64,000 bases of DNA from a virus. The stretch spans positions 9 through 64,008 of the IMG/VR virus record IMGVR_UViG_3300017767_005578. The stretch is one strand, 5' to 3'. The notes under the pieces were generated by a model. The model was not told the origin of the DNA and searched no databases. It saw only the letters and a program-made list of their open reading frames with translations. Below, piece after piece: positions 1 through 8,571 of this stretch (position 1 is its first letter; the number at the start of each line of letters is the position of its first letter). A program made the position numbers and the translations under genes.

Positions 1-125
1 TTTGTGAAAGTTCTTCAATAAAGTCTAAAAGAAGTATGTCTAGCATTACGTTTATTGGCATCAGTTGACTCCATGTAAGCTCTCCTTCTTCGTACCCCTC
101 TTCGACAGCTAAAGATCTTCCAATC

Positions 126-473
126 TTATATGTGTATTTTTCCATTACTAGCAGTTTTACCTCTCAATTTAATAAATTCAGATTTAATCTGTTTTATCTT
201 TTGGTAAAGCTTTTCATCCTTTTTTACAAGGTACTGCTCGCTTAGGTTTTTGTGTTCTTTTTCTAATTGTGCAATCTTCTCTCCTTTGGTTATTACACTG
301 TTGAGATAGTCCCTGACTGCTTTAATGGAGTCTATTGTTTCGATAGAGAACTGCTTAGAAGGAATGTGTAATCCTTTGATGTAATATTCACCTACCATAA
401 TAGTTATTTTGTCAAACTTATCATTGGTTGTGATAACCGCATTTCCTTCTTTATCTAAAATTAATGTTCTCAT
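126..473 (-). CDS. hypothetical protein (115 aa, coiled-coil C-terminus)
   Basis: ORF track; co-oriented with neighbours, plausible composition. Confidence 0.6.
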   Translation of the reverse strand: MRTLILDKEGNAVITTNDKFDKITIMVGEYYIKGLHIPSKQFSIETIDSIKAVRDYLNSVITKGEKIAQLEKEHKNLSEQYLVKKDEKLYQKIKQIKSEFIKLRGKTASNGKIHI

Positions 474-488
474 ATTTTTTATAAAAAT

Positions 489-551
489 TAACAGGTTGTA
501 AACGCAACCTCGTTCCTCGGTAGTCGCTCAAGCTCGTTTACAAGGGCGTTA
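489..551 (-). repeat. attC-like hairpin site A (63 bp)
   Basis: Minus strand reads TAAC-GCCC-TTGTAAACG...CGTTTACAA-CCT-GTTA; 50/63 identical to site at 6525-6587. Confidence 0.8.
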
Positions 552-560
552 GTGGTAATA

Positions 561-746
561 CTACTTACTACCAAAATATTTTTTAGGTATCATACATTTT
601 TCTATAAGTCTTTTATGAACTTCTTCTTGTGAAGGAATCAATTCAAGAAAGCTTTTTAAAGAATCAGACATACCTAAATCAATAGGTTTTATTTCCGTAC
701 TACCACTAACATTATTTAAATTCAATTTATCTTTCGCTTTGCTCAT
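561..746 (-). CDS. hypothetical protein (61 aa), fused across an attC-like junction
   Basis: ORF track; NV|SGS junction = AAT GTT AGT GGT AGT, complementary to ATTACCACTAAC after the stop. Confidence 0.6.
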   Translation of the reverse strand: MSKAKDKLNLNNVSGSTEIKPIDLGMSDSLKSFLELIPSQEEVHKRLIEKCMIPKKYFGSK

Positions 747-798
747 TCTAAACAGTATTTACATTTATCATTGTAATCACATTAAAACGTGTTACAAA

Positions 799-999
799 AA
801 CGTGTATAGGTAATTATTACCCTTGCTTTTCTGCGTTATCAAAGGCATTATCTATCCATTCTTGTATGGTTTGCCCTTGTGGTATAAATAATTGGTTGTT
901 TTTATAAAGTGCATACATAAGTATTTCAAATTGTTCTTTCTTCATAATTATATTTTTAAGTTATTAAATCGGGCAAAAACTACCCATACACAATGCGTT
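799..999 (-). repeat. long-loop attC-like site D
   Basis: AAC...TGTATGGGTAGTTTTTGCCC (990-971) pairs with GGGTAATAATTACCTATACA (822-803), then C-GTT; 3 G-T wobbles and 1 mismatch. Confidence 0.65.
817..945 (-). CDS. small hypothetical protein (42 aa, MKKEQFEILMYALYKNNQLFIPQGQTIQEWIDNAFDNAEKQG), absent from ORF track
   Basis: Translated by hand; A-rich leader; lies in the loop of site D. Confidence 0.55.
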   Translation of the reverse strand: MKKEQFEILMYALYKNNQLFIPQGQTIQEWIDNAFDNAEKQG

Positions 1000-1007
1000 G
1001 TACGCAA

Positions 1008-1226
1008 TTATTCGGGAAACCATTCAGTTATTGTTGTATCAACAAACTCTTGTCCACCAACTGCATTTATCATATCATTAGTATAAGCAACCGCTTCGTT
1101 GTACCTAATAAATACTTGGTCATCAGAAGTTGCATAAAAACTCAGAAGTTGTTGTCCAAGTTCTGTTTCAAAAATCTCATTAGCTTTTTCTTGTGTCATT
1201 GTCGTAAATTTAACTGCGTACAACAT
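1008..1226 (-). CDS. hypothetical cassette protein (likely start Met10, MTQEKAN)
   Basis: ORF track; flanked by GTTGTACGCA (997-1006) and TGCGTACAAC (1215-1224). Confidence 0.65.
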   Translation of the reverse strand: MLYAVKFTTMTQEKANEIFETELGQQLLSFYATSDDQVFIRYNEAVAYTNDMINAVGGQEFVDTTITEWFPE

Positions 1227-1308
1227 TGCATAAAGTTAATACGCTATGATGGTCAGTACTTTAATTTAAAAGTTTAGGTAAAGCGTACTAACCTTATACT
1301 TTACCGTT
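1222..1308 (-). repeat. long-loop attC-like site C
   Basis: AAC-GGTAAA-GTATAAGGTTAGTACGCT / AGCGTATTAACTTTATGC-AAT-GTT; 18-bp stem with 3 G-T wobbles, 36-nt loop. Confidence 0.75.
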
Positions 1309-1322
1309 AGTTAGCAATAACA

Positions 1323-1961
1323 CTAAGTCCATTGCTCTGCCATAGCTTTTGCAATTCCTGGATATGTCTTACTTCTTAATTTAGCCCTATCTTTTGTTGG
1401 GGGTAGTTTATTTTGTCCTGTGTCTGTTTGATTATCCCAATATTTTTTTCTTCCAAATATTCTAGGTTCAATATATTTTGTTCCATTAAGATTTGGAAGC
1501 CCTTTAAGCCACAAACACGTTCTTTTACTTGCGTTATCTCCAAATTCATAAGGCTGTATTGTTTGATTTGGTTTTTTAAACATTGTGCTTAATTTACCTA
1601 CTGGATTTTCTATTGCTATTTTTGGTATTCCTGAGTTCCATAGTTTTTTAACAAAATCAACAGCTTCTATCCTAGCTTTTTTTCTTTTTGTTCCAACAAG
1701 TGTTCCTTTTTTTACTTTTTGGTGATAAGGAGGTTCTTTGTAAGCCCATTCTGCACTACAAGTTAAATAAGTGCAATCAGGAAAAAATATTCCCATATCC
1801 CATTTTTTTAAATTTATTGCTTCAAAAACATCCATTTGTAAATGCCATTCAGGATGACCTCCGCTACAAGGAATTATGTCACAAGAAAAAGCCTCATGTC
1901 CTCGCTTTCTCAACTCTATTGTTACCGCTTGGCTCTCTTCGCAGCCTACTAATATTTTCAT
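1323..1961 (-). CDS. phage DNA cytosine methyltransferase-like protein (atypical)
   Basis: MKILVGCEESQ...SCDI..CSGGHPEWH N-terminus, FPDCTYL catalytic-like motif, IAIENPVG, KRTCLWLKGLP, RSKTYPGIAKAMAEQW typical of this phage family. Confidence 0.7.
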   Translation of the reverse strand: MKILVGCEESQAVTIELRKRGHEAFSCDIIPCSGGHPEWHLQMDVFEAINLKKWDMGIFFPDCTYLTCSAEWAYKEPPYHQKVKKGTLVGTKRKKARIEAVDFVKKLWNSGIPKIAIENPVGKLSTMFKKPNQTIQPYEFGDNASKRTCLWLKGLPNLNGTKYIEPRIFGRKKYWDNQTDTGQNKLPPTKDRAKLRSKTYPGIAKAMAEQWT

Positions 1962-1976
1962 AATTTAATTTACTAA

Positions 1977-2624
1977 TTAACAAGTCTGAACTCCAAAAAT
2001 ATCATCTTCATGGATAACCACATAATCTTCACCTTCTATCTTAAGATCAACAGCACCCAGAGGTTTAACAACAATCACATCACCTTTACTAACTTCATCA
2101 GCAATAAACCTTGAAGGAGCAACCACCTCTAATAAATCTTCTGTTTTTTTATTCTTAAGGTAGTCTGGAATTATTAAGGTTGTGGATTGGAATATGTTTT
2201 TATACTTCTTACAAATGGACCACTTGTGTATTGGGATTATCTCTCCGTCTACGATTTTACAATATGAGCTAGTAGCATACTTAGCAATCATATCTCTAAA
2301 GAACCGAAAGAAAAACTTACCGTCTTCTGTTCTTCTCTCAAAATTAACCACATGATGATGAAAGTAAACAACATCACCTTCATCTATTTCATCCAGAGTT
2401 ATTTGGTCTTTCTTAACTATACTACTAAGCCCTCTTGGTTTTCCTACTACCGTTCCTTTGTGAGGTATCAAAGAAGGATCTAAAGGAGCTGTGCCGTCTT
2501 CTTCCATTCTGGAGAATATTGTATCCATGTAAAGCTCTACTTCTTTTTCTCCTAATTTTATGGTTTTTTTCAAATGCTGTTTTAGGTCAATATCAACAAG
2601 CATAAAATCTTTTACGTATATCAT
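1977..2624 (-). CDS. co-chaperonin GroES-like protein with two tandem domains
   Basis: C-half IIPIH...LIIPD...EVVAPS...VSKGDVIV...LKIEGEDYVVIHEDDIFGV matches GroES; N-half GTVVGKP...IDEGDVVYFHHHV is also GroES-like. Confidence 0.7.
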   Translation of the reverse strand: MIYVKDFMLVDIDLKQHLKKTIKLGEKEVELYMDTIFSRMEEDGTAPLDPSLIPHKGTVVGKPRGLSSIVKKDQITLDEIDEGDVVYFHHHVVNFERRTEDGKFFFRFFRDMIAKYATSSYCKIVDGEIIPIHKWSICKKYKNIFQSTTLIIPDYLKNKKTEDLLEVVAPSRFIADEVSKGDVIVVKPLGAVDLKIEGEDYVVIHEDDIFGVQTC

Positions 2625-2824
2625 AGCTTCTCAAAAAAATAATCAAAAACTTCTTTAGTGTAAATCTCAAACTTACCGTCTGTATGTTTTACGACAAAAT
2701 CTGTCTTAAAAGGAAACATAAAGGTGTCTTTCTTTGTTCCAACGAAGTCTAGAATTTCTTTAGCATTTTTTCCGTTGTATTGCAATGCCTGAATTACTTC
2801 AGGTTTTTTTCTATAAAAATCCAT
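2621..2824 (-). CDS. conserved phage hypothetical protein (YRKKPEVIQALQY family)
   Basis: ORF track; N-terminal KKP.V.A.Q motif common in phages. Confidence 0.6.
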   Translation of the reverse strand: MDFYRKKPEVIQALQYNGKNAKEILDFVGTKKDTFMFPFKTDFVVKHTDGKFEIYTKEVFDYFFEKL

Positions 2825-2844
2825 GTTTTGTATAAAATTATTGT

Positions 2845-3102
2845 TTAATGTTCTTTATCGTACATGTCCTGCGCCCTTTCGTTTAGCTGCTCTAAAATAT
2901 CATCGTTATCTGTTAGTGACTCAAACATCTCAGTAACATCAACTGGTGGGCTTAAAGGTCTTAAACAGGTTAAAACTTTATTGTACCCTATCACACCACC
3001 TTCGTATGGAGGGGTGTAATAATCCCCAGGGCAGCCTTCTTCTATTTCCACATCTGTAAATGTGTACTCTATTCCTTTGAATGATAAATCTATATCCGTC
3101 AT
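2845..3102 (-). CDS. hypothetical acidic protein (GDYYTPP motif)
   Basis: ORF track. Confidence 0.55.
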   Translation of the reverse strand: MTDIDLSFKGIEYTFTDVEIEEGCPGDYYTPPYEGGVIGYNKVLTCLRPLSPPVDVTEMFESLTDNDDILEQLNERAQDMYDKEH

Positions 3103-3248
3103 TTTAATTTAATTTTCGTTATTGCTTTTTATTTTTTTATCTCTTTCGTTTAGCTTTTTTTGACACTCCACAGAGCAAACCGTAAAAATAGTGGTTATTT
3201 TACGGTTACATATTACGCAGTTACCAGGGAACAAACTTACTTGTAATT

Positions 3249-3944
3249 TCATATATGGTCTTTATAAAAATCCTTATCTCTAATGATTCTACTTACAATG
3301 TTGTAGCCTAATACTAGGTCGATTGATAACTTCCTCTTAGAGCGTGTCTGGTGCAACATAATAACCTTCCTAACCTTATCCAAATCCTTTTCAACAGGGA
3401 TAAGCTTTTTACCTCTTTTTTTAAATCCAAAAGGTGCTTTTCTGCTGTAGACTTCTAAGTTCTTTTTTTTGTTTTGAAGAATTGTAGACGTTCTCTCAGA
3501 GATAATACCTCTCTCCATTTCGTTAAGAGATAGCATTAATGATATGAAGAACTTTCCTGTTGCTGTATTGGTATCTATTGATTCACCATTTAAGTCTAGG
3601 ATTGACATTCCTATTCCTTCTTTATTAAGTGTGTCAATAAAAGTAAGACCGTCTATTACTTTTCTGGATATACGATCAAGCTTCCATGATACAACGTGGT
3701 TTATCTCTTTGTTGTCGATTCTTTCCTTAAGGATAGAACCTCCTGGTCTTTTGAATATTTTAGAACCTCCTGAGATGTCTTCGTCAATAATTATATCAAC
3801 TACCTCATAATCTTTTTCTTTGCAGAACAGGACACATTTATCCTTCTGCATCTCTAATGAGTTATCTTGTTTGTTTGTAGATACTCTAATGTAAATAATT
3901 GCTTGGGTTTTCATAATGACTAATTTAATTATTTGTAATGACAA
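3249..3944 (-). CDS. serine recombinase (resolvase/invertase catalytic domain plus short C-terminal extension)
   Basis: IYIRVSTNKQ (catalytic Ser), SLEMQ, DEDISGG, KLDRISR, E..IISERT, APFGF; likely start Met11. Confidence 0.9.
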   Translation of the reverse strand: MSLQIIKLVIMKTQAIIYIRVSTNKQDNSLEMQKDKCVLFCKEKDYEVVDIIIDEDISGGSKIFKRPGGSILKERIDNKEINHVVSWKLDRISRKVIDGLTFIDTLNKEGIGMSILDLNGESIDTNTATGKFFISLMLSLNEMERGIISERTSTILQNKKKNLEVYSRKAPFGFKKRGKKLIPVEKDLDKVRKVIMLHQTRSKRKLSIDLVLGYNIVSRIIRDKDFYKDHI

Positions 3945-4053
3945 AACATATTTAAAGTATGTTTTTTTTGAACAGGGTATAGAAGTAGTAGTTAGATTAA
4001 TTCATCTATTATTCGATTGGACAAAAATGGTACAAGTCTAGAACGAAGTGATA

Positions 4054-4845
4054 CTACGAACACTTAATCCCCAAACTAAACTTAGATAGATAAGAAGTAT
4101 ACATCATATCTAATTTAAAGAGAAACCTCGAATCGTAGTCATCACCTCCTTGGTAGAACTTTGAATCTGGAACGTATTGATGTTTTTCTACATCAACCTT
4201 TAAAAAAGTAATTAGATTATTTAACTTCTTATATATCTTCCCTTTTTTGTGAAAGATAGTGGGATCATCGTATGCTCTTCTCAAAGCAGCAGCCGTCCTC
4301 TCGTCGCCTTTATCAATCATTCCTGCCCTTTTCCTGTCAGAGATAACTTTTCTCCCAGCCAGAGCGTTTAATGACCTTGAAGCGTCAATAAGGGAGCAAC
4401 CCCAAATTTCTGCACATTTCTCTCTTGAGGCAGTTACCTCTAAGCTTCTAAAAAACTGCGAATGCTCTTGTAATTCTTCTGGAGAATTGAGTAACCAAGC
4501 TTTGAGACCTTTTATCCCAAAGCTTTTAAGGTACTTCGTTGACTTCTTGCTTGCTTTTCTTAATGCTTTTGTTTCTTGAGCAGAAATGTGTTCTCTTAGA
4601 GACTCAGCTCTAAGTAATTCTTTTATCGTATATATTTTACTTGATTGGTGTCTTTTTTTATTTGGTTTATTATCGTTATATCTGCAGTCTACTGACTTGC
4701 ATATTTTTTTCAGTGATCTAAGGTAGATGTTTGGACCTTTTATGTCTATCCATCCTAAACTTTGAAGAGCTTGTAGTCTTCTGTTGATAGTTTTAACAGA
4801 GAGTTGGGTATCCATTTCAAGGACAACCATTTCATAATCTTTCAC
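4054..4845 (-). CDS. winged-helix DNA-binding protein, possibly replication-related
   Basis: LSVKTINRRLQALQSLGWI and CAEIWGCSLIDASRSLNAL HTH-like segments; frame is open 51 codons further upstream. Confidence 0.45.
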   Translation of the reverse strand: MKDYEMVVLEMDTQLSVKTINRRLQALQSLGWIDIKGPNIYLRSLKKICKSVDCRYNDNKPNKKRHQSSKIYTIKELLRAESLREHISAQETKALRKASKKSTKYLKSFGIKGLKAWLLNSPEELQEHSQFFRSLEVTASREKCAEIWGCSLIDASRSLNALAGRKVISDRKRAGMIDKGDERTAAALRRAYDDPTIFHKKGKIYKKLNNLITFLKVDVEKHQYVPDSKFYQGGDDYDSRFLFKLDMMYTSYLSKFSLGIKCS

Positions 4846-5006
4846 ACAGCCGCTGTATTCTAGTGTTTTTAAATAGCAGTAGAACTCGAAATCTTTAACT
4901 TTTTTCTTGTTAAGAATAGCTTTTGCTAACCCAGGAACTAGGGTTATTTGCGTGAGTGATATATATTTATTACTTTTGATGAAGTTCTTTTTATTTATTC
5001 ACAAAG

Positions 5007-5035
5007 CAAATATAAGGATTGGAATCCAGATTCAA
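5007..5035 (-). promoter_or_regulatory. Bacteroidota sigma-A type promoter
   Basis: Minus strand TTG-18nt-TATATTTG matches the -33/-7 (TAnnTTTG) consensus. Confidence 0.5.
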
Positions 5036-5045
5036 GATATGATTT

Positions 5046-5915
5046 TCATTGATTGGTCTGGATTTTCTTTTTTCTGTTGCTTTCATTTTGTAATATAATG
5101 TCAAATATTATTCTTTCGTGTTTGTAGGCTACTTTTCTTAGTAGTTTAGAGTAGGGATATATGTCGAAATGGTCATTAATTTCTTCAAAAGTACACCCTT
5201 TTTCTATTTTTTTCTTAAAACTTTTTTTGTAGGTTTCTATTATTTTAGAAAGTCTAGTACGGTAGCCATTTCTTATAAATTTAGTATATTTTTTCTCTTC
5301 TAGCACAAAAAACTTTTTAACACTTCTATGGTCATTAAGTTGGAAGTATTTTTTATTAAGTTCGTTGTATGACATTATATTGTTGTTTATGTCGTATATG
5401 ATGTCTTTTTTATTTTGTTCAAATCTTTTTCGGGCTAAAGAATCTTTTTTTGCTTTTTCTTTAATGATTAGAAGATCATTTGAAACATCCTCGTTAAGGA
5501 TTTTACCTTTTAGTATCAGGAAGTGATTTGCTATATAATTTTTTTTACAGATTCTTCTATCAACTAGGTGTTGATTATCCTCAAACATTTTGGTGTAGTG
5601 ATAGAATGTGCATCTGGATTTGTCTGTTATTATTGAGAATGTTTCGTGAACATTTTTTGCTTTGTAGTCACCAAGAAGTTCGTGTATTAGGTATGTAAAC
5701 ACAGCCATTGGTCCAATATCTTCTGAGCTTCTGGATGGTGATACCAGGGTTTCTATTTCAAAGTATTCTTTAACTTTTTCAGCCAGTTCTATTATTTTAT
5801 TTCCTTGGTCTGTAAGTTTGTACTTTAGTTTTATAATGTTTTTGGCTTCTTCTAGGCTTTCACCACATTGGATTAGTAGAACTATTTCGTTTAGTTCTTT
5901 ATCGGTATATGTCAT
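5046..5915 (-). CDS. hypothetical protein with DnaA C-terminal-like HTH segment
   Basis: SPSRSSEDIGPMAVFTYLIHE...KSRCTFYHYTK resembles the DnaA domain IV pattern. Confidence 0.4.
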   Translation of the reverse strand: MTYTDKELNEIVLLIQCGESLEEAKNIIKLKYKLTDQGNKIIELAEKVKEYFEIETLVSPSRSSEDIGPMAVFTYLIHELLGDYKAKNVHETFSIITDKSRCTFYHYTKMFEDNQHLVDRRICKKNYIANHFLILKGKILNEDVSNDLLIIKEKAKKDSLARKRFEQNKKDIIYDINNNIMSYNELNKKYFQLNDHRSVKKFFVLEEKKYTKFIRNGYRTRLSKIIETYKKSFKKKIEKGCTFEEINDHFDIYPYSKLLRKVAYKHERIIFDIILQNESNRKKKIQTNQ

Positions 5916-5942
5916 ATTAATTTTAGTATAGGGTTTTTAGGG

Positions 5943-6185
5943 CTATCTTTTTTTTCCTTTGTGCAAACCATGTTTAGCGTGTTGCTTGCCTTGTTTTGTT
6001 GCTGCTCTTTTTTTTCTGTTTGCCGCTGCTAGTTTTTTTCTACCTGCGGCAGTAGATTTAAGCTTTGTGATTGTTTTTTTAGGAGCGTAAACTTCTCCTG
6101 TTTCAGAAGATTTTTTCCCTGAAGCTGTTGTCCATTTTTGTTTGGTCCACTTGTCTAGACTTTTCTGAGATTTAGCTTTAGCCAT
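5943..6185 (-). CDS. highly basic small phage protein
   Basis: SLDKWTKQKWTT..GKKS..TGEVY.PK family seen in aquatic phages; very Lys-rich. Confidence 0.7.
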   Translation of the reverse strand: MAKAKSQKSLDKWTKQKWTTASGKKSSETGEVYAPKKTITKLKSTAAGRKKLAAANRKKRAATKQGKQHAKHGLHKGKKR

Positions 6186-6189
6186 TTAA

Positions 6190-6378
6190 TTACTTTTTAG
6201 ATTTATAACCTCCTCCTGCTGCTTTATATTTCTTAGCAAGCATTTGGGCTTTTCTTGCAGACCACTGACCAGCGTTACCTCCTTTAGATCCTGCTTTTAT
6301 TTGATTAAAAAGCTTTTTCCTCATTGTTGGTTTTGTGTAGTTACCAGCTTTGTTGACTGTACTTTTCTTGGCTTTCAT
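6190..6378 (-). CDS. highly basic small phage protein (DUF5872-like)
   Basis: NYTKPTMRK...GGNAGQWSARKAQMLAKKYKAAGGGY motif. Confidence 0.7.
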   Translation of the reverse strand: MKAKKSTVNKAGNYTKPTMRKKLFNQIKAGSKGGNAGQWSARKAQMLAKKYKAAGGGYKSKK

Positions 6379-6486
6379 CTAATAGTATTTATTTGTTTTT
6401 TTTGGAGCAGGTTTTTTCTTACCTGTTGCTTTCTTTTTTGTTGTAATTTTCTTTACTAATTTTTTATTACCGCTTCCGTATTTCAT
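6379..6486 (-). CDS. 35-aa Lys-rich peptide MKYGSGNKKLVKKITTKKKATGKKKPAPKKTNKYY, absent from ORF track
   Basis: Translated by hand; its TAG abuts the ATG of the next gene; TATATTGA element upstream. Confidence 0.65.
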   Translation of the reverse strand: MKYGSGNKKLVKKITTKKKATGKKKPAPKKTNKYY

Positions 6487-6524
6487 TTTAATAATTTTTT
6501 TTCAATATACGAAAAAATAGTTAT

Positions 6525-6587
6525 TAACAAGTTGTAATTGCAAGCTCGTACCTCGCCAGTCGCACAAGCTCAATTACAAGTATGTTA
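6525..6587 (-). repeat. attC-like hairpin site B (63 bp)
   Basis: TAAC-ATAC-TTGTAATTG...CAATTACAA-CTT-GTTA; compensatory changes relative to site A. Confidence 0.8.
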
Positions 6588-6594
6588 GCAAACA

Positions 6595-6810
6595 TTACTT
6601 ACTTGCTTCATATCTTTCATTCCAACAAGGGAAACACAACCCATCATTTAAGTCTTGTACTTTATTTCCACACTTACACGTAAGCAACGATTTGCTAACA
6701 TTAGCTATACGTAATTGCTCTTCGTAAGCATCTATAATTCTTTGTGCTTCTAAATATTGTTCTTCTGTTATCATAAGTTTAGTTTTTAATACGCAACTAC
6801 GCATAGCCAC
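6595..6810 (-). CDS. small Cys-containing hypothetical protein (likely start MITEEQ), fused across an attC-like junction
   Basis: CKC...CFPC in C-terminal part; IANV|SKS junction. Confidence 0.55.
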   Translation of the reverse strand: MAMRSCVLKTKLMITEEQYLEAQRIIDAYEEQLRIANVSKSLLTCKCGNKVQDLNDGLCFPCWNERYEASK

Positions 6811-6818
6811 GTCCGTTA
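6697..6818 (-). repeat. long-loop attC-like site
   Basis: TAAC-GGACGTG-GCTATGCGTAGTTGC / GCAATTACGTATAGC-TAAT-GTT; 15-bp stem with 2 G-T wobbles, 74-nt loop. Confidence 0.75.
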
Positions 6819-6880
6819 TCTAGATCTTAATGCTAAACAAGCGATTAAGAATTTTAATATTAAGAATCCTATAAAGTAAA

Positions 6881-7369
6881 TCATGATTCTTTGATTTGAA
6901 TAATTCCTAAGTCACTTTCGTAATTAAATCTTTCGCATTCTGTTGGTATGTTGATTGGAGGTATATATCCTGCGTGTATTGTTATTACTTCTCCGTTGAA
7001 TACGTATGCTATACCCTTACCTTTTTTGTAACAGTCAGGAGTGTTTTCTGGCATCACAGCGTATCCTTCATTAATAAAACCGATAGGGTTTTGTTTGAAG
7101 AAGTGAACCATTTCTTCTCTAAAGTTTGTTTGTTGTTTTCTTTGATGGCTTAAATTTCCTAGCCATGTTTTAATTATTTTCTTGATAGTCATTTTTGCTG
7201 TTGTATAAGTTTTAGATCTTCTGACTAAAGGATTAATTTGTATTCCTTTGTCGTTTATTAACACACCTACGTTCATCATTTTGTCGATGTCTTTTTGTTG
7301 GTCCAGGTGTTCTTGTGAATTTTTTTTAATTGTGAGTCCTTGTTTGAACTCTTGAAATAAGTTTTCCAT
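6881..7369 (-). CDS. hypothetical protein
   Basis: ORF track. Confidence 0.55.
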   Translation of the reverse strand: MENLFQEFKQGLTIKKNSQEHLDQQKDIDKMMNVGVLINDKGIQINPLVRRSKTYTTAKMTIKKIIKTWLGNLSHQRKQQTNFREEMVHFFKQNPIGFINEGYAVMPENTPDCYKKGKGIAYVFNGEVITIHAGYIPPINIPTECERFNYESDLGIIQIKES

Positions 7370-7374
7370 GATAT

Positions 7375-7518
7375 TTATTTTAGGTATAATCGTTTGTATA
7401 ATTTGTAGCTTGATATGTAACTAATTGTGCAAGCTCCGAGGAACATCCATATATTAAATAAGAATGGAGCAGAGATTGTTGATATTAGCCATATTGCTAT
7501 TAGTATGTTGTTAACCAT
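7375..7518 (-). CDS. small membrane protein (47 aa), absent from ORF track
   Basis: MVNNILIAIWLISTISAPFLFNIWMFLGACTISYISSYKLYKRLYLK; hydrophobic; overlaps upstream stop. Confidence 0.45.
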   Translation of the reverse strand: MVNNILIAIWLISTISAPFLFNIWMFLGACTISYISSYKLYKRLYLK

Positions 7519-7684
7519 AAGCTTTCCAGTTTAGTACTCTTTTGACATCGTATCCTTCTATTTGAAGGAGGGTTTTAATGTCGTAATAAGATTGTTGTTT
7601 TTTTGTTTTAATCACTTCCCATTTCATCTGGAAGGAACTGTCTATAAATTTAATAACAAAGGTTTTCATATTGATTTTAAGCAT
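7511..7684 (-). CDS. small hypothetical protein (57 aa), absent from ORF track
   Basis: TAATG coupling with the methyltransferase stop; translated by hand. Confidence 0.45.
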   Translation of the reverse strand: MLKINMKTFVIKFIDSSFQMKWEVIKTKKQQSYYDIKTLLQIEGYDVKRVLNWKAYG

Positions 7685-8571
7685 TATGTTAGTGGTATAT
7701 TTTTAAAGATGTGTGCTATTACGTCAACTGTCCAACCGTTGCCTATCATTTTTTTTCTTTGATTGTCAGAAACACCTTTGGTATATCCTTCTGGTATTGT
7801 TTGTAACTTTTCTATTTCTGTTATGTTTAGCTTGTATATTTTAAAGTCTTTTACAAATCCGTAGTTACAAGCGGTATTTAAAGTGTTTATTTTTCCTTTA
7901 GAAACTCTACCTCTTCTAGTTTTAGATTTAGGAAAATCTAAGTTTACACCGTCTCCGTTTTCTGCTATTAAATATCCTTTTTTTGTAGCGTTTCTAACGT
8001 AAACACCTTTATCGTCTGTTTTTAATATTAAGTCTTTATCAACGTATTCTTTTCTATCAGAGTCAATTAAAACATCACTAAGTGTGATACCTTTGTCTAA
8101 GGGTTGTTCTATATTAGGTATGTTGGTCCAGTATAGCCTTTCTCTTTTTTGAGCAGACACTAGACTACTATTTATTAAAATACAGTCTACTCCTAATTCT
8201 TTTGTTATTATATGCTCCCATTCTTTTTTCATAAGCACATTTTCTAGAAGAAAGTATTTAGGTTTTGTTTCTTTTAATAATCTTAAAAATTCCCAAAACA
8301 ATTTACTTTTACCATCGAATCCGCTTCCGTCACCTGATCTACTAAAACTTTGGCAAGGGCTACCACCAAAAAGTAAATCAATCTTTGGCAAATCTTCTGC
8401 TTTTACATCAACTACATTACCAATTTGTTTAGTGTTAGGGTAGTTCTTCTGTGTTATTTGTATAGCGTATTTGTCAATCTCGCTTGCAAAGTAATTATCA
8501 TAATTAATCCCTAGCTTGTTGAGTGCTATCTGTCCACAGCTCATTCCGTCAAATAAACTTAATACATTCAT
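7684..8571 (-). CDS. dcm: C5 DNA cytosine methyltransferase
   Basis: Motif I LSLFDGMSCG, motif IV GGSPCQS, motif VI LLENV, QKRERLYW, KMIGNGW. Confidence 0.92.
   Translation of the reverse strand: MNVLSLFDGMSCGQIALNKLGINYDNYFASEIDKYAIQITQKNYPNTKQIGNVVDVKAEDLPKIDLLFGGSPCQSFSRSGDGSGFDGKSKLFWEFLRLLKETKPKYFLLENVLMKKEWEHIITKELGVDCILINSSLVSAQKRERLYWTNIPNIEQPLDKGITLSDVLIDSDRKEYVDKDLILKTDDKGVYVRNATKKGYLIAENGDGVNLDFPKSKTRRGRVSKGKINTLNTACNYGFVKDFKIYKLNITEIEKLQTIPEGYTKGVSDNQRKKMIGNGWTVDVIAHIFKNIPLT

What the first reader, a model, noticed from the sequence alone, without database searches (positions are those of the whole stretch)
561..945. Hairpin loops encode ORFs and N-termini, giving in-frame protein fusion across the crossover point
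The 148-nt loop of site D holds a complete 42-aa ORF (945-817) whose stop codon lies in the stem arm. The site at 793-708 supplies the ATG and first 13 codons (MSKAKDKLNLNNV), and its GTT is the in-frame Val fused to the cassette-encoded SGSTEIK. The same happens at 6699 (MITEEQ...IANV|SKSLLTC). The sites therefore act as translation-start or N-terminal modules, and recombination at G|TT would build chimeric proteins combinatorially. Classical attC sites are not known to me to work this way.
Basis: partly seen in the sequence, partly recalled or inferred. Interest (0 to 1): 0.7.

Follow-up and report, generated by a model that had tools for sequence, protein, structure and literature searches.

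The report
Phage cassette junctions that splice proteins
In this marine phage, small early genes are built from hairpin-bounded DNA pieces: one piece carries the start codon and protein front end, and a start-less piece is read on in one fixed reading frame, and related phages carry many front/back pairings, though the gene at the reported spot always keeps the same front end among its close relatives.

Summary
The sequence facts hold. A 42-aa ORF (945-817) fills the 148-nt loop of a significant stem (802-822/971-991), and its stop lies in the arm. ORF 746-561 starts 36 nt upstream of an in-frame GTT (710-708), which opens a 14-nt inverted-repeat-bounded, start-less unit.

The stretch 793-708 does not fold. 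The whole 61-aa gene (776-549) moves as one piece in at least 9 contexts. The only different front end is on one distant homologue (P0055).

The general idea is supported elsewhere:
- At 6699 the front end MITEEQ..IANV is joined to at least 5 different back ends.
- The window's Cys-rich back end is joined to at least 4 front ends.
- The closing stem keeps pairing through compensatory changes.
- The ORF42 family has at least 5 different tails.
- All 8 start-less cassette families surveyed read GTT as a codon.
- Non-Watson-Crick pairs are 20 G-T against 2 A-C on the sense strand.

Best reading: integron-like cassettes (CALIN type, no integrase) with reversed gene polarity. The usual swap point lies between genes (AA|C). 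A second, phase-locked swap point lies at GTT inside genes. The recombinase and any translation are not shown.

This is a new variant of a known kind. The scan has noted the same phenomenon on several other phage genomes.

The parts
488..554 (-). Site A. An attC-like hairpin (stems 496-504/535-543) flanked by TAAC and GTTAA. It is anchored to the downstream gene 473-126.
   Evidence: It is homologous to site B (6525-6587) with compensatory stem changes. In 7 related loci everything upstream of TAAC (551) varies, and L005 has the empty site.
561..746 (-). ORF61, a 61-aa early protein. Its ATG (746-744) and 12 codons lie upstream of the in-frame GTT.
   Evidence: Five protein clusters are all full length. 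The internal Met26 is not conserved, so 746 is the start.
548..561 (.). 3' arm of the inverted repeat that bounds the start-less body of ORF61. It begins with the G of the TAG stop and ends in AAC on the sense strand.
   Evidence: 14/14 pairs with one G-T; 0/500 shuffles. It is invariant in loci whose gene interior differs by 14-19%.
697..710 (.). 5' arm of the same inverted repeat. It starts with GTT (710-708) = Val13.
708..793 (-). It occupies the position of an attC part but is not folded.
   Evidence: z -0.07. Codons 1-17 show 0-1 nucleotide change across 7 loci, while the leader and the gene body diverge.
549..776 (-). The ORF61 unit as it actually occurs elsewhere (leader + whole ORF + 3' arm).
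   Evidence: The same 224-228 nt lie in different surroundings in L010-L016, L012, L017, L018, L021, L022 and L024. Independent contigs cover 549-776 and 547-772.
793..1003 (-). Site D unit. Closing stem 971-991/802-822, with a loop that holds the leader and ORF42. GTT at 801-799 is in ORF42's frame but lies behind two stops.
   Evidence: L042 keeps the unit with both flanks replaced exactly at AAC| and G|TT. Contigs cover 793-1002 and 793-950.
817..945 (-). ORF42, a conserved N-terminal module (MKKEQFEILMYALY..EWIDNAF). In this window it ends on its own.
   Evidence: There are 23 clusters, and 5 of them carry different longer tails. L041 has it fused to a Cys-rich cassette that has its own inverted-repeat ends.
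997..1224 (-). ORF72 cassette bounded by 14-nt inverted repeats (997-1010/1211-1224). The likely true start is the ATG at 1199-1197.
   Evidence: L025 shares exactly this unit. The MLYAVKFTT extension is not conserved in L026, L028 or L031.
1222..1310 (-). Site E hairpin unit (stems 1230-1245/1282-1297).
   Evidence: Contigs cover 1222-1310 and 1197-1308 in other surroundings.
6697..6820 (-). Site F. TAAC (6818-6815), stem 6793-6809/6702-6718, loop with the leader, the ATG (6774) and the N-part, then GTT 6699-6697 = Val26.
   Evidence: The stem is kept with compensatory changes in L039 and L010b, and the loops hold unrelated N-parts.
6582..6701 (-). Start-less Cys-rich back-end cassette (a), with inverted-repeat ends 6691-6701/6582-6592.
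   Evidence: It is found behind 4 different front ends. Codon changes are 9 synonymous to 2 non-synonymous (L040) and 9 to 6 (L039).

Best explanation
The early region of this 64-kb Flavobacteriia-type phage is a chain of small exchangeable units punctuated by AAC and GTT. The units follow the grammar of integron cassettes, but there is no integrase in the genome (a CALIN-like state) and the genes face the opposite way.

Read on the sense strand, one cassette is: AA|C, spacer, closing stem or its decayed remnant, leader, ATG, N-terminal peptide, second stem arm, GTT, body, stop, ..AA|C. The site part therefore carries the translation start and the front end of the protein. The body often has no start of its own. 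GTT is always read as a Val codon, so any front end fits any body.

Shown here:
- The units and their breakpoints.
- Pairing of each body's two ends and of the closing stems, with compensatory changes.
- The sense-strand bias of G-T pairs.
- The fixed phase.
- Many natural front/back combinations.

Inferred:
- The usual exchange is at AA|C between genes, so whole genes such as ORF61 travel intact.
- GTT (the R''-like box) is a second, rarer swap point that reshuffles halves.
- Exchange is done on folded single-stranded sense DNA by a host integron-type recombinase, or by short-homology recombination at the conserved ends.

At 561-945 itself, ORF42 is a front-end module that stops inside its own stem. 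ORF61 is a front+body pair that is fixed among close relatives, and its site part has lost its fold.
For: Modules and breakpoints:
- Related loci replace everything between the GroES-like stop (1977) and TAAC of site A (551), and L005 is empty.
- 6814-6588 is replaced as a unit in L001 and L002.
- Independent metagenome contigs break at 549/776, 793/1002, 991, 960, 1197/1308 and 1222/1310.

Combinations: alignment A4, A5, P0055 with L045-L047, and L004, which uses one front-end family twice with different bodies.

Pairing:
- Anchored shuffles gave 0/500 for the ORF61 body ends, the ORF72 ends, the site D stem and the site F stem.
- The arms in L039 and L010b compensate.
- Body ends covary at positions 5-10 of the arms in cassettes a, c, d, L046 and L047.

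Strand: 20 G-T against 2 A-C pairs on the sense strand.

Phase: 10 of 10 read-through units (8 families) have GTT as a codon, and 18 other units carry their own ATG.

Translation frame: cassette (a) shows 9 synonymous to 2 non-synonymous changes, and Met26 of ORF61 is not conserved.

Precedent: attC clusters without an integrase occur in virulent phages, including a Polaribacter phage, and are recombined by IntI1 (PMC9892861).
Against: - No recombination was observed. No tyrosine recombinase is encoded, and no host is known.
- 793-708 does not fold.
- The R boxes share only AAC/GTT(A) with the RYYYAAC/GTTRRRY consensus.
- No attC covariance model could be run.
- Cassettes a, c and d share about 15 nt at each end, so plain homologous recombination could give the same mosaics.
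- Breakpoints are only resolved to a few bases.
- The protein sets come from gene callers, so out-of-frame joins would escape a protein search.
- ORF61 shows no N/C reassortment among relatives of 80-100% identity.
- P0055 is a marginal hit (E 7.6e-4).
- The sense-strand bias fits an mRNA structure as well as single-stranded DNA.
Confidence: 0.6

Rival explanations
1. Botstein-type modular exchange by ordinary homologous recombination. The conserved ends of units (stem arms, the ..AATGTTAGC linker, leader motifs) are short homology patches, as with PeSL motifs in T4-type phages. The stems and inverted repeats work in the mRNA (stability, processing, or insulating each cistron's fold). They have nothing to do with site-specific recombination, and the AAC/GTT look is convergent.
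For: - The G-T bias is on the transcribed sense strand.
- Cassettes a, c and d share about 15-nt ends around unrelated interiors, and WIN, L033 and L040 share both stem arms around unrelated loops.
- ORF61 units in other phages are joined through a TAA(T/C)G + TAAATACTGT leader with no hairpin at all.
- No integrase is present.
- PeSL precedent: PMC2839356 and PMC4122927.
Against: - Unit ends with unrelated sequences still start with GTT, end with AAC and pair with each other through compensatory changes. Homology-driven exchange does not require this.
- The empty-site and filled-site junctions fall within 3 bases of TAAC in 7 loci.
- Sigma-70-type promoter-like sites are not enriched, and the terminator scan picks up only 3 weak local stems (two within sites A and D), not the closing stems.
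- The leader motif occurs only once in this genome.
Confidence: 0.3
2. At 561-945 nothing modular is happening. ORF61 and ORF42 are ordinary small phage genes. The GTT at codon 13 and the 14-nt inverted repeat are relics or coincidence, and the loop-with-ORF picture is just two repeats that happen to flank a gene.
For: - ORF61 is full length with the same N-part in 5 clusters and at least 9 contexts.
- 36 unanchored inverted repeats of this size occur in the window.
- 793-708 does not fold.
- The site D stem is absent around the ORF42 homologues in L041, L043 and L044.
Against: - Anchored tests gave 0/500.
- Both arms and codons 1-17 are invariant beside a gene interior that differs by 14-19%.
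- The same architecture recurs in 8 families with one phase.
- The site D unit moves with exact AAC| and G|TT borders.
- The ORF42 and ORF61-body families do occur with other partners.
Confidence: 0.1

Closest known systems
Integron gene cassettes and attC sites, and integrase-less attC clusters (CALINs) in virulent phages (Qi et al. 2023, PMC9892861)
   Same: Hairpin sites sit between AAC and GTT boxes. Each unit's first bases are complementary to its own inverse-core box. Units are present, absent or replaced at a fixed spot, and no integrase is next to the array. A Polaribacter phage attC is recombined by IntI1 through its bottom strand.
   Different: Genes face the opposite way, so the folded strand is the sense strand. 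The site part holds the leader, the ATG and a peptide of 13-50 codons. Many bodies have no start codon. A second swap point lies inside the coding sequence in a fixed phase. The R boxes match the consensus only at AAC/GTT(A).
ORF-11/ORF-18 in attI1, short ORFs inside attC, and N-terminal fusions of aac(6')-Ib and gcuF1-blaOXA-28 (review PMC8876359)
   Same: Reading frames cross the G|TT crossover. A site supplies the ribosome start for a start-deficient cassette. Occasional chimeric N-termini result.
   Different: Those cases are translational-coupling leaders that end at the TAG in GTTAG, or they are accidental fusions. Here the frame is GTT-AGY, so it is open, and the front ends are conserved folded helices shared among many unrelated bodies.
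PeSL mobile regulatory cassettes in T4-type phages (PMC2839356, PMC4122927)
   Same: Stem-loop motifs punctuate arrays of small early ORFs and mark the borders of insertions, deletions and replacements between related phages.
   Different: PeSLs are promoter-terminator composites that lie between whole genes and exchange by homology. Here the borders are AAC/GTT, unit ends pair with each other, and one border lies inside genes.
Shufflons (Rci/sfx) and Gin/Cin/Min invertible tail-fibre segments (from my own knowledge, not tested here)
   Same: Site-specific recombination sites inside a coding sequence join one constant N-terminal part in frame to alternative C-terminal parts.
   Different: Those systems work by inversion within one genome, use a dedicated adjacent recombinase and offer few alternatives. 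Here both halves vary, the variation is seen between genomes, and no dedicated recombinase is identified. A small serine recombinase gene at 3249-3944 is unlinked to the sites.
C-terminal toxin swapping in CdiA/Rhs at VENN/PxxxxDPxGL motifs (from my own knowledge)
   Same: A short conserved in-frame linker demarcates exchangeable C-terminal modules.
   Different: Those are large toxins exchanged by homologous recombination with orphan modules, and no hairpins are involved.

Membership tests
Integron attC site / gene cassette | R'' (RYYYAAC) and R' (GTTRRRY) boxes at the ends of the site | tested here: inconclusive
   AAC and GTT are always present, often as CTAAC/GTTAG. The flanking consensus is frequently not met (for example GTTGTAC and GTTTTTG).
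Integron attC site / gene cassette | Imperfect L''/L' stem that folds as single-stranded DNA, recognised by structure rather than sequence | tested here: met
   This holds for sites A, B, D, E and F: the stems differ in sequence, are compensated, and gave 0/500 shuffles for D and F. It does not hold for 793-708.
Integron attC site / gene cassette | The cassette's first bases are complementary to its own inverse core (the mark of a circular intermediate) | tested here: met
   Seen at 548-561/697-710, 997-1010/1211-1224 and 6582-6592/6691-6701, and in L032, L037, L041, L046 and L047 with covarying arms.
Integron attC site / gene cassette | The ORF reads toward its attC (site downstream of the gene), and the antisense strand folds | tested here: not met
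   The site parts sit upstream of, and inside, the gene they travel with. The G-T bias shows that the sense strand folds.
Integron attC site / gene cassette | Recombination by an IntI tyrosine recombinase with the crossover at G|TT | not testable with these tools
   No PF00589 match in the genome. Only population breakpoints were seen.
Integron attC site / gene cassette | Match to the attC covariance/HMM models (IntegronFinder, HattCI) | not tested
   These models are not available here. Rfam gave no match in the window.
CALIN (attC cluster lacking an integrase) | Two or more attC sites within a few kb and no intI nearby | tested here: inconclusive
   Sites A, D and E lie within 830 nt, B and F within 300 nt, and there is no integrase. 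However, attC identity rests on my own criteria, not on the published detectors.
PeSL (promoter-early stem-loop) | Composite of a sigma-70 early promoter and a terminator stem-loop, repeated with conserved sequence | tested here: not met
   Promoter-like sites number 8 against 7.3 expected. Only 3 weak terminator-like hits were found. The site sequences differ from each other except A and B.

The most novel reading that the evidence does not exclude
Phages of marine Flavobacteriia run a phase-locked protein-domain shuffling system. attC-like hairpins work as exon-like 'heads' that carry the promoter-proximal leader, the start codon and a helical N-terminal module. Start-less 'bodies' bounded by self-pairing GTT..AAC ends are joined to the heads by structure-specific recombination on the folded sense strand. 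This produces combinatorial libraries of small early (perhaps host-takeover or anti-defence) proteins.
Probability: 0.35. Interest if true: 0.9.

Novelty: new variant of a known kind. Interest (0 to 1): 0.75.

Why it matters
Integron-type cassettes are thought of as whole promoterless genes. Here the recombination site itself encodes the start and the front domain of the protein. A second junction inside the gene keeps one codon phase, so front ends and back ends can be recombined without breaking the frame. If a recombinase acts there, this would be a natural, site-specific domain-shuffling device in viruses. It would offer a mechanism for the rapid turnover of small early phage proteins. It would also matter for annotation, because start-less cassette ORFs and attC detectors tuned to the canonical polarity would miss such arrays. 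It gives concrete, testable junction peptides and sites.

Tried and rejected
- Megablast of 1-8000 against phage records found nothing. Distant blastn hit only the methyltransferase.
- Rfam (gathering thresholds) and the tRNA scan found nothing.
- Pfam and PHROGs gave no family for ORF61, ORF42, ORF72, the 59-aa protein or gene 126-473.
- An unanchored inverted-repeat count showed such repeats are common in this AT-rich DNA (36 in the window). I replaced it with anchored shuffle tests. The anchored tests for cassette (a) (34/500) and the methyltransferase unit (37/500) are weak on their own.
- An exact search for the ORF61 N-part DNA in viral and JGI metagenome contigs found only the same gene.
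- A search for the site A/B core in 185,579 prokaryote genomes found nothing, so there is no host lead.
- The leader motif is not repeated in the window.
- The simple minus-strand integron model (site belongs to the gene in front of it) is rejected: sites A and B stay with the gene behind them.
- ORF72's ATG across the crossover (1226-1224) is rejected as a real start, because homologues share the ATG at 1199.
- AlphaFold models are low confidence (pLDDT 74 and 71). I used them only for the N-terminal helix and ran no fold search.
- RNA-library contigs cover 547-772 and other units, but contigs cannot show transcription.
- I opened Polaribacter phage P12002L but did not analyse it further.

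Full report
**Setting.** The window is almost the whole of a 64,031-bp virus record, which IMG/VR labels a provirus, 92% complete. GC content is about 32% on the left, and early genes lie on the minus strand from 1 to about 16,000. The nearest database phages are Flavobacterium and Cellulophaga phages, and only through a methyltransferase. Related uncultured contigs are marine.

**Checking the observation.** An inverted repeat, 802-822 with 971-991, is 148 nt apart and encloses ORF 945-817 (42 aa). The stop codon, and a second one, lie in the arm. Counting G-T, the stem pairs 20/21, and none of 500 anchored dinucleotide shuffles reached that.

ORF 746-561 reads MSKAKDKLNLNNV|SGSTEIK. The GTT at 710-708 is codon 13 and the first triplet of a 14-nt arm (697-710). 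That arm pairs with 548-561 directly behind the stop (0/500). Met26 is not conserved in homologues, so the ATG at 746 is the start and the repeat-bounded body has no start of its own.

The stretch 793-708, however, is not a hairpin. As single-stranded DNA it folds no better than shuffles (z -0.07 and -0.6). Only a local 27-nt hairpin at 771-797 stands out.

At 6699 the description holds. GTT (6699-6697) is Val26 of a 59-aa ORF. A 17-bp stem (6793-6809 with 6702-6718) encloses the leader, the ATG and 19 codons (0/500).

**What moves at 561-945.**
- Seven related loci share the GroES-like gene (stop at 1977) and everything from TAAC of site A (551) leftwards. They carry other DNA in between, and L005 has nothing in between.
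- The 61-aa protein has five clusters of homologues, all 61 aa and collinear.
- Its DNA unit, 776-549 (leader, whole ORF and 3' arm), sits in different surroundings in L010-L016, L012, L017, L018, L021, L022 and L024.
- Two further independent contigs cover 549-776 and 547-772.
- An exact search for the N-part DNA found only this gene.

Two facts keep the question open:
- Codons 1-17 and both arms show 0-1 change in loci whose gene interior differs by 14-19% and whose leader differs by 8-19%.
- An exhaustive HMMER search found a distant homologue of the body (P0055, E 7.6e-4) behind a different 30-aa front end, joined at the same Val.

**ORF42.** It is a real family of 23 clusters. The first ~36 residues are conserved. 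After ..DNAF the tails differ. Most stop as in the window, but five clusters continue into unrelated tails of 15-35 residues. In L041 the tail is a Cys-rich unit with its own GTT..AA(T) inverted-repeat ends, read in frame.

The site D unit is kept in L042 with both flanks replaced exactly at AAC| and G|TT. It also occurs as 793-1002 in other contigs. One contig keeps the 5' arm and continues into another front end from position 960. The closing stem is not found around the ORF42 homologues in L041, L043 and L044.

**The test at 6699.**
- The front end MITEEQ..EQLRIANVS is joined to at least five unrelated back ends, none with a Met near its beginning.
- The window's Cys-rich back end follows at least three other front ends (P0014, P0015, P0016), always through ..(I/P)(A/I)(N)V-S.
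- The closing stem is kept in L032, L033, L036 and L040. In L039 and L010b both arms have changed in a compensating way, and the loops (74-147 nt) hold unrelated front ends.
- Back end (a) shows 9 synonymous against 2 non-synonymous codon changes (L040), and 9 against 6 (L039), in the frame set by the upstream ATG.
- An AlphaFold model makes residues 4-29 one helix that runs through the junction (modest confidence).

**Generality.**
- The front-end family of P0055 is joined in L045, L046 and L047 to three further bodies.
- Each body begins with GTT and ends with AAC, and its two ends pair. The arms differ between bodies in a compensating way: GCAAA/TTTGC, GCATT/AATGC, GCGGT/ACCGC, ACCAAAC/GTTTGGT.
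- L004 uses one front-end family twice with different bodies.
- I surveyed all fetched loci plus the window and found 76 distinct GTT..AAC inverted-repeat units with arms of 10 or more. Of these, 18 hold their own ATG 17-50 nt inside (ORF72, with its conserved ATG at 1199, is of this kind). Ten units (eight families) are read through from an upstream ATG, and all ten have GTT as a codon. Even allowing for the TAG that closes one phase in GTTAG, this is unlikely by chance (about 1e-3).

**Which strand folds.** In 15 stems there are 173 Watson-Crick pairs, 20 G-T pairs on the sense strand, 2 A-C pairs and 3 other mismatches. Some stems are related by descent, but about 14 to 2 remains among independent ones. 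The folded strand is therefore the sense strand, either as mRNA or as single-stranded DNA.

**Model.** A canonical integron orientation, with the site belonging to the gene in front of it, fails. Sites A and B stay with the gene behind them. With the window's + strand as top strand, everything fits an integron cassette with reversed gene polarity:
- The bottom strand that folds is the sense strand.
- The crossover G|TT on the + strand appears as AA|C between genes.
- A cassette is the site part (leader, ATG, front end) plus the body.
- The body's first bases pair with its own inverse core, as in integron cassettes.

This explains three things: why ORF61 travels whole, why 6814-6588 is replaced as one unit in L001 and L002, and why 793-708 sits where a site should be although it no longer folds. 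The front/back reassortments need a second swap point at GTT, the R''-like box. This could be recombination of the other box, or homologous recombination in the conserved arms. I cannot separate these.

No tyrosine recombinase is encoded. A small serine recombinase gene lies at 3249-3944. No host chromosome copy of site A/B was found.

**Known relatives.**
- attC clusters without an integrase are described in virulent phages, and IntI1 recombines them (PMC9892861).
- Frames that cross the attI1 crossover (ORF-11, ORF-18), short ORFs in attC, and N-terminal fusions of aac(6')-Ib are known, but as coupling devices or accidents (PMC8876359).
- PeSL motifs in T4-type phages are the homology-based alternative.

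I found no paper that describes phase-locked head/body exchange. Earlier notes of this scan report the same phenomenon on several other phage genomes. I treat them as agreeing leads, not as evidence.

**Verdict.** It is strong for the general mechanism-by-anatomy and for 6699. It is weak for the ORF61 junction and wrong about a fold at 793-708. Translation of the chimeras and the recombination itself remain untested.

Noticed in passing
window 1008-1226: The longest-ORF start at 1226 (whose G is the G of GTT) is probably not used. All homologues share the ATG at 1199-1197 (MTQEKAN..), and the upstream 9 codons are not conserved.
   Followed up: yes
window 695-746 and loci L017, L018, L021: Codons 1-17 of ORF61 are nearly invariant at the nucleotide level (0-1 change in 51 nt). 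The leader just upstream differs by 8-19% and the gene interior by 14-19%. This island could be a nucleic-acid signal or a separately exchanged mini-module.
   Followed up: partly
window 1977-1981 and 548-551; L005 2018-2020: Empty site: in L005 the GroES-like stop codon runs straight into TAAC of site A. In the window, about 1.43 kb (552-1976) of cassettes lies between these points.
   Followed up: yes
L025 1178-3044: Six consecutive whole-gene units are each bounded by a GTT..AAC inverted repeat, with the ATG 18-31 nt inside. This is a clean array of the self-starting cassette type.
   Followed up: partly
L004 4090-4331 and 5309-5561: One contig carries the same front-end family (MEEKIVEILFKTILTNTE..) twice, joined at Val to two different start-less bodies.
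   Followed up: partly
window 3249-3944: A small serine recombinase (Resolvase N-terminal domain, E 1e-34) lies in the early region, 2.3 kb from the array. It is the only recombinase gene I found. No tyrosine recombinase is present.
   Followed up: partly
L001 9076-, L003 about 4549-, L022 722-1147; window right end: Genes for an outer-membrane porin-like protein, an ammonium transporter and a P-II-like protein lie just beyond gene 126-473 in related contigs. IMG/VR calls the record a provirus. These may be host flank or auxiliary genes.
   Followed up: no
window 1977-2624: The 215-aa protein upstream of the array matches Cpn10/GroES only in residues 146-212. The N-terminal half has no Pfam match.
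   Followed up: no
L010, L012, L017, L021, L022 around the ORF61 unit: In other phages, small early genes are joined through TAA(T/C)G followed by a leader with TAAATACTGT about 6 nt before the ATG, without any hairpin. In the window this leader occurs only once (752-772).
   Followed up: partly
window 771-797: A 27-nt mini-hairpin (TTGTAA..TTACAA, the same stem ends as sites A and B) straddles the border between the site D unit and the ORF61 unit. Similar short stems followed by TTTTAATG follow the GroES-like stop in L002 and L006.
   Followed up: no
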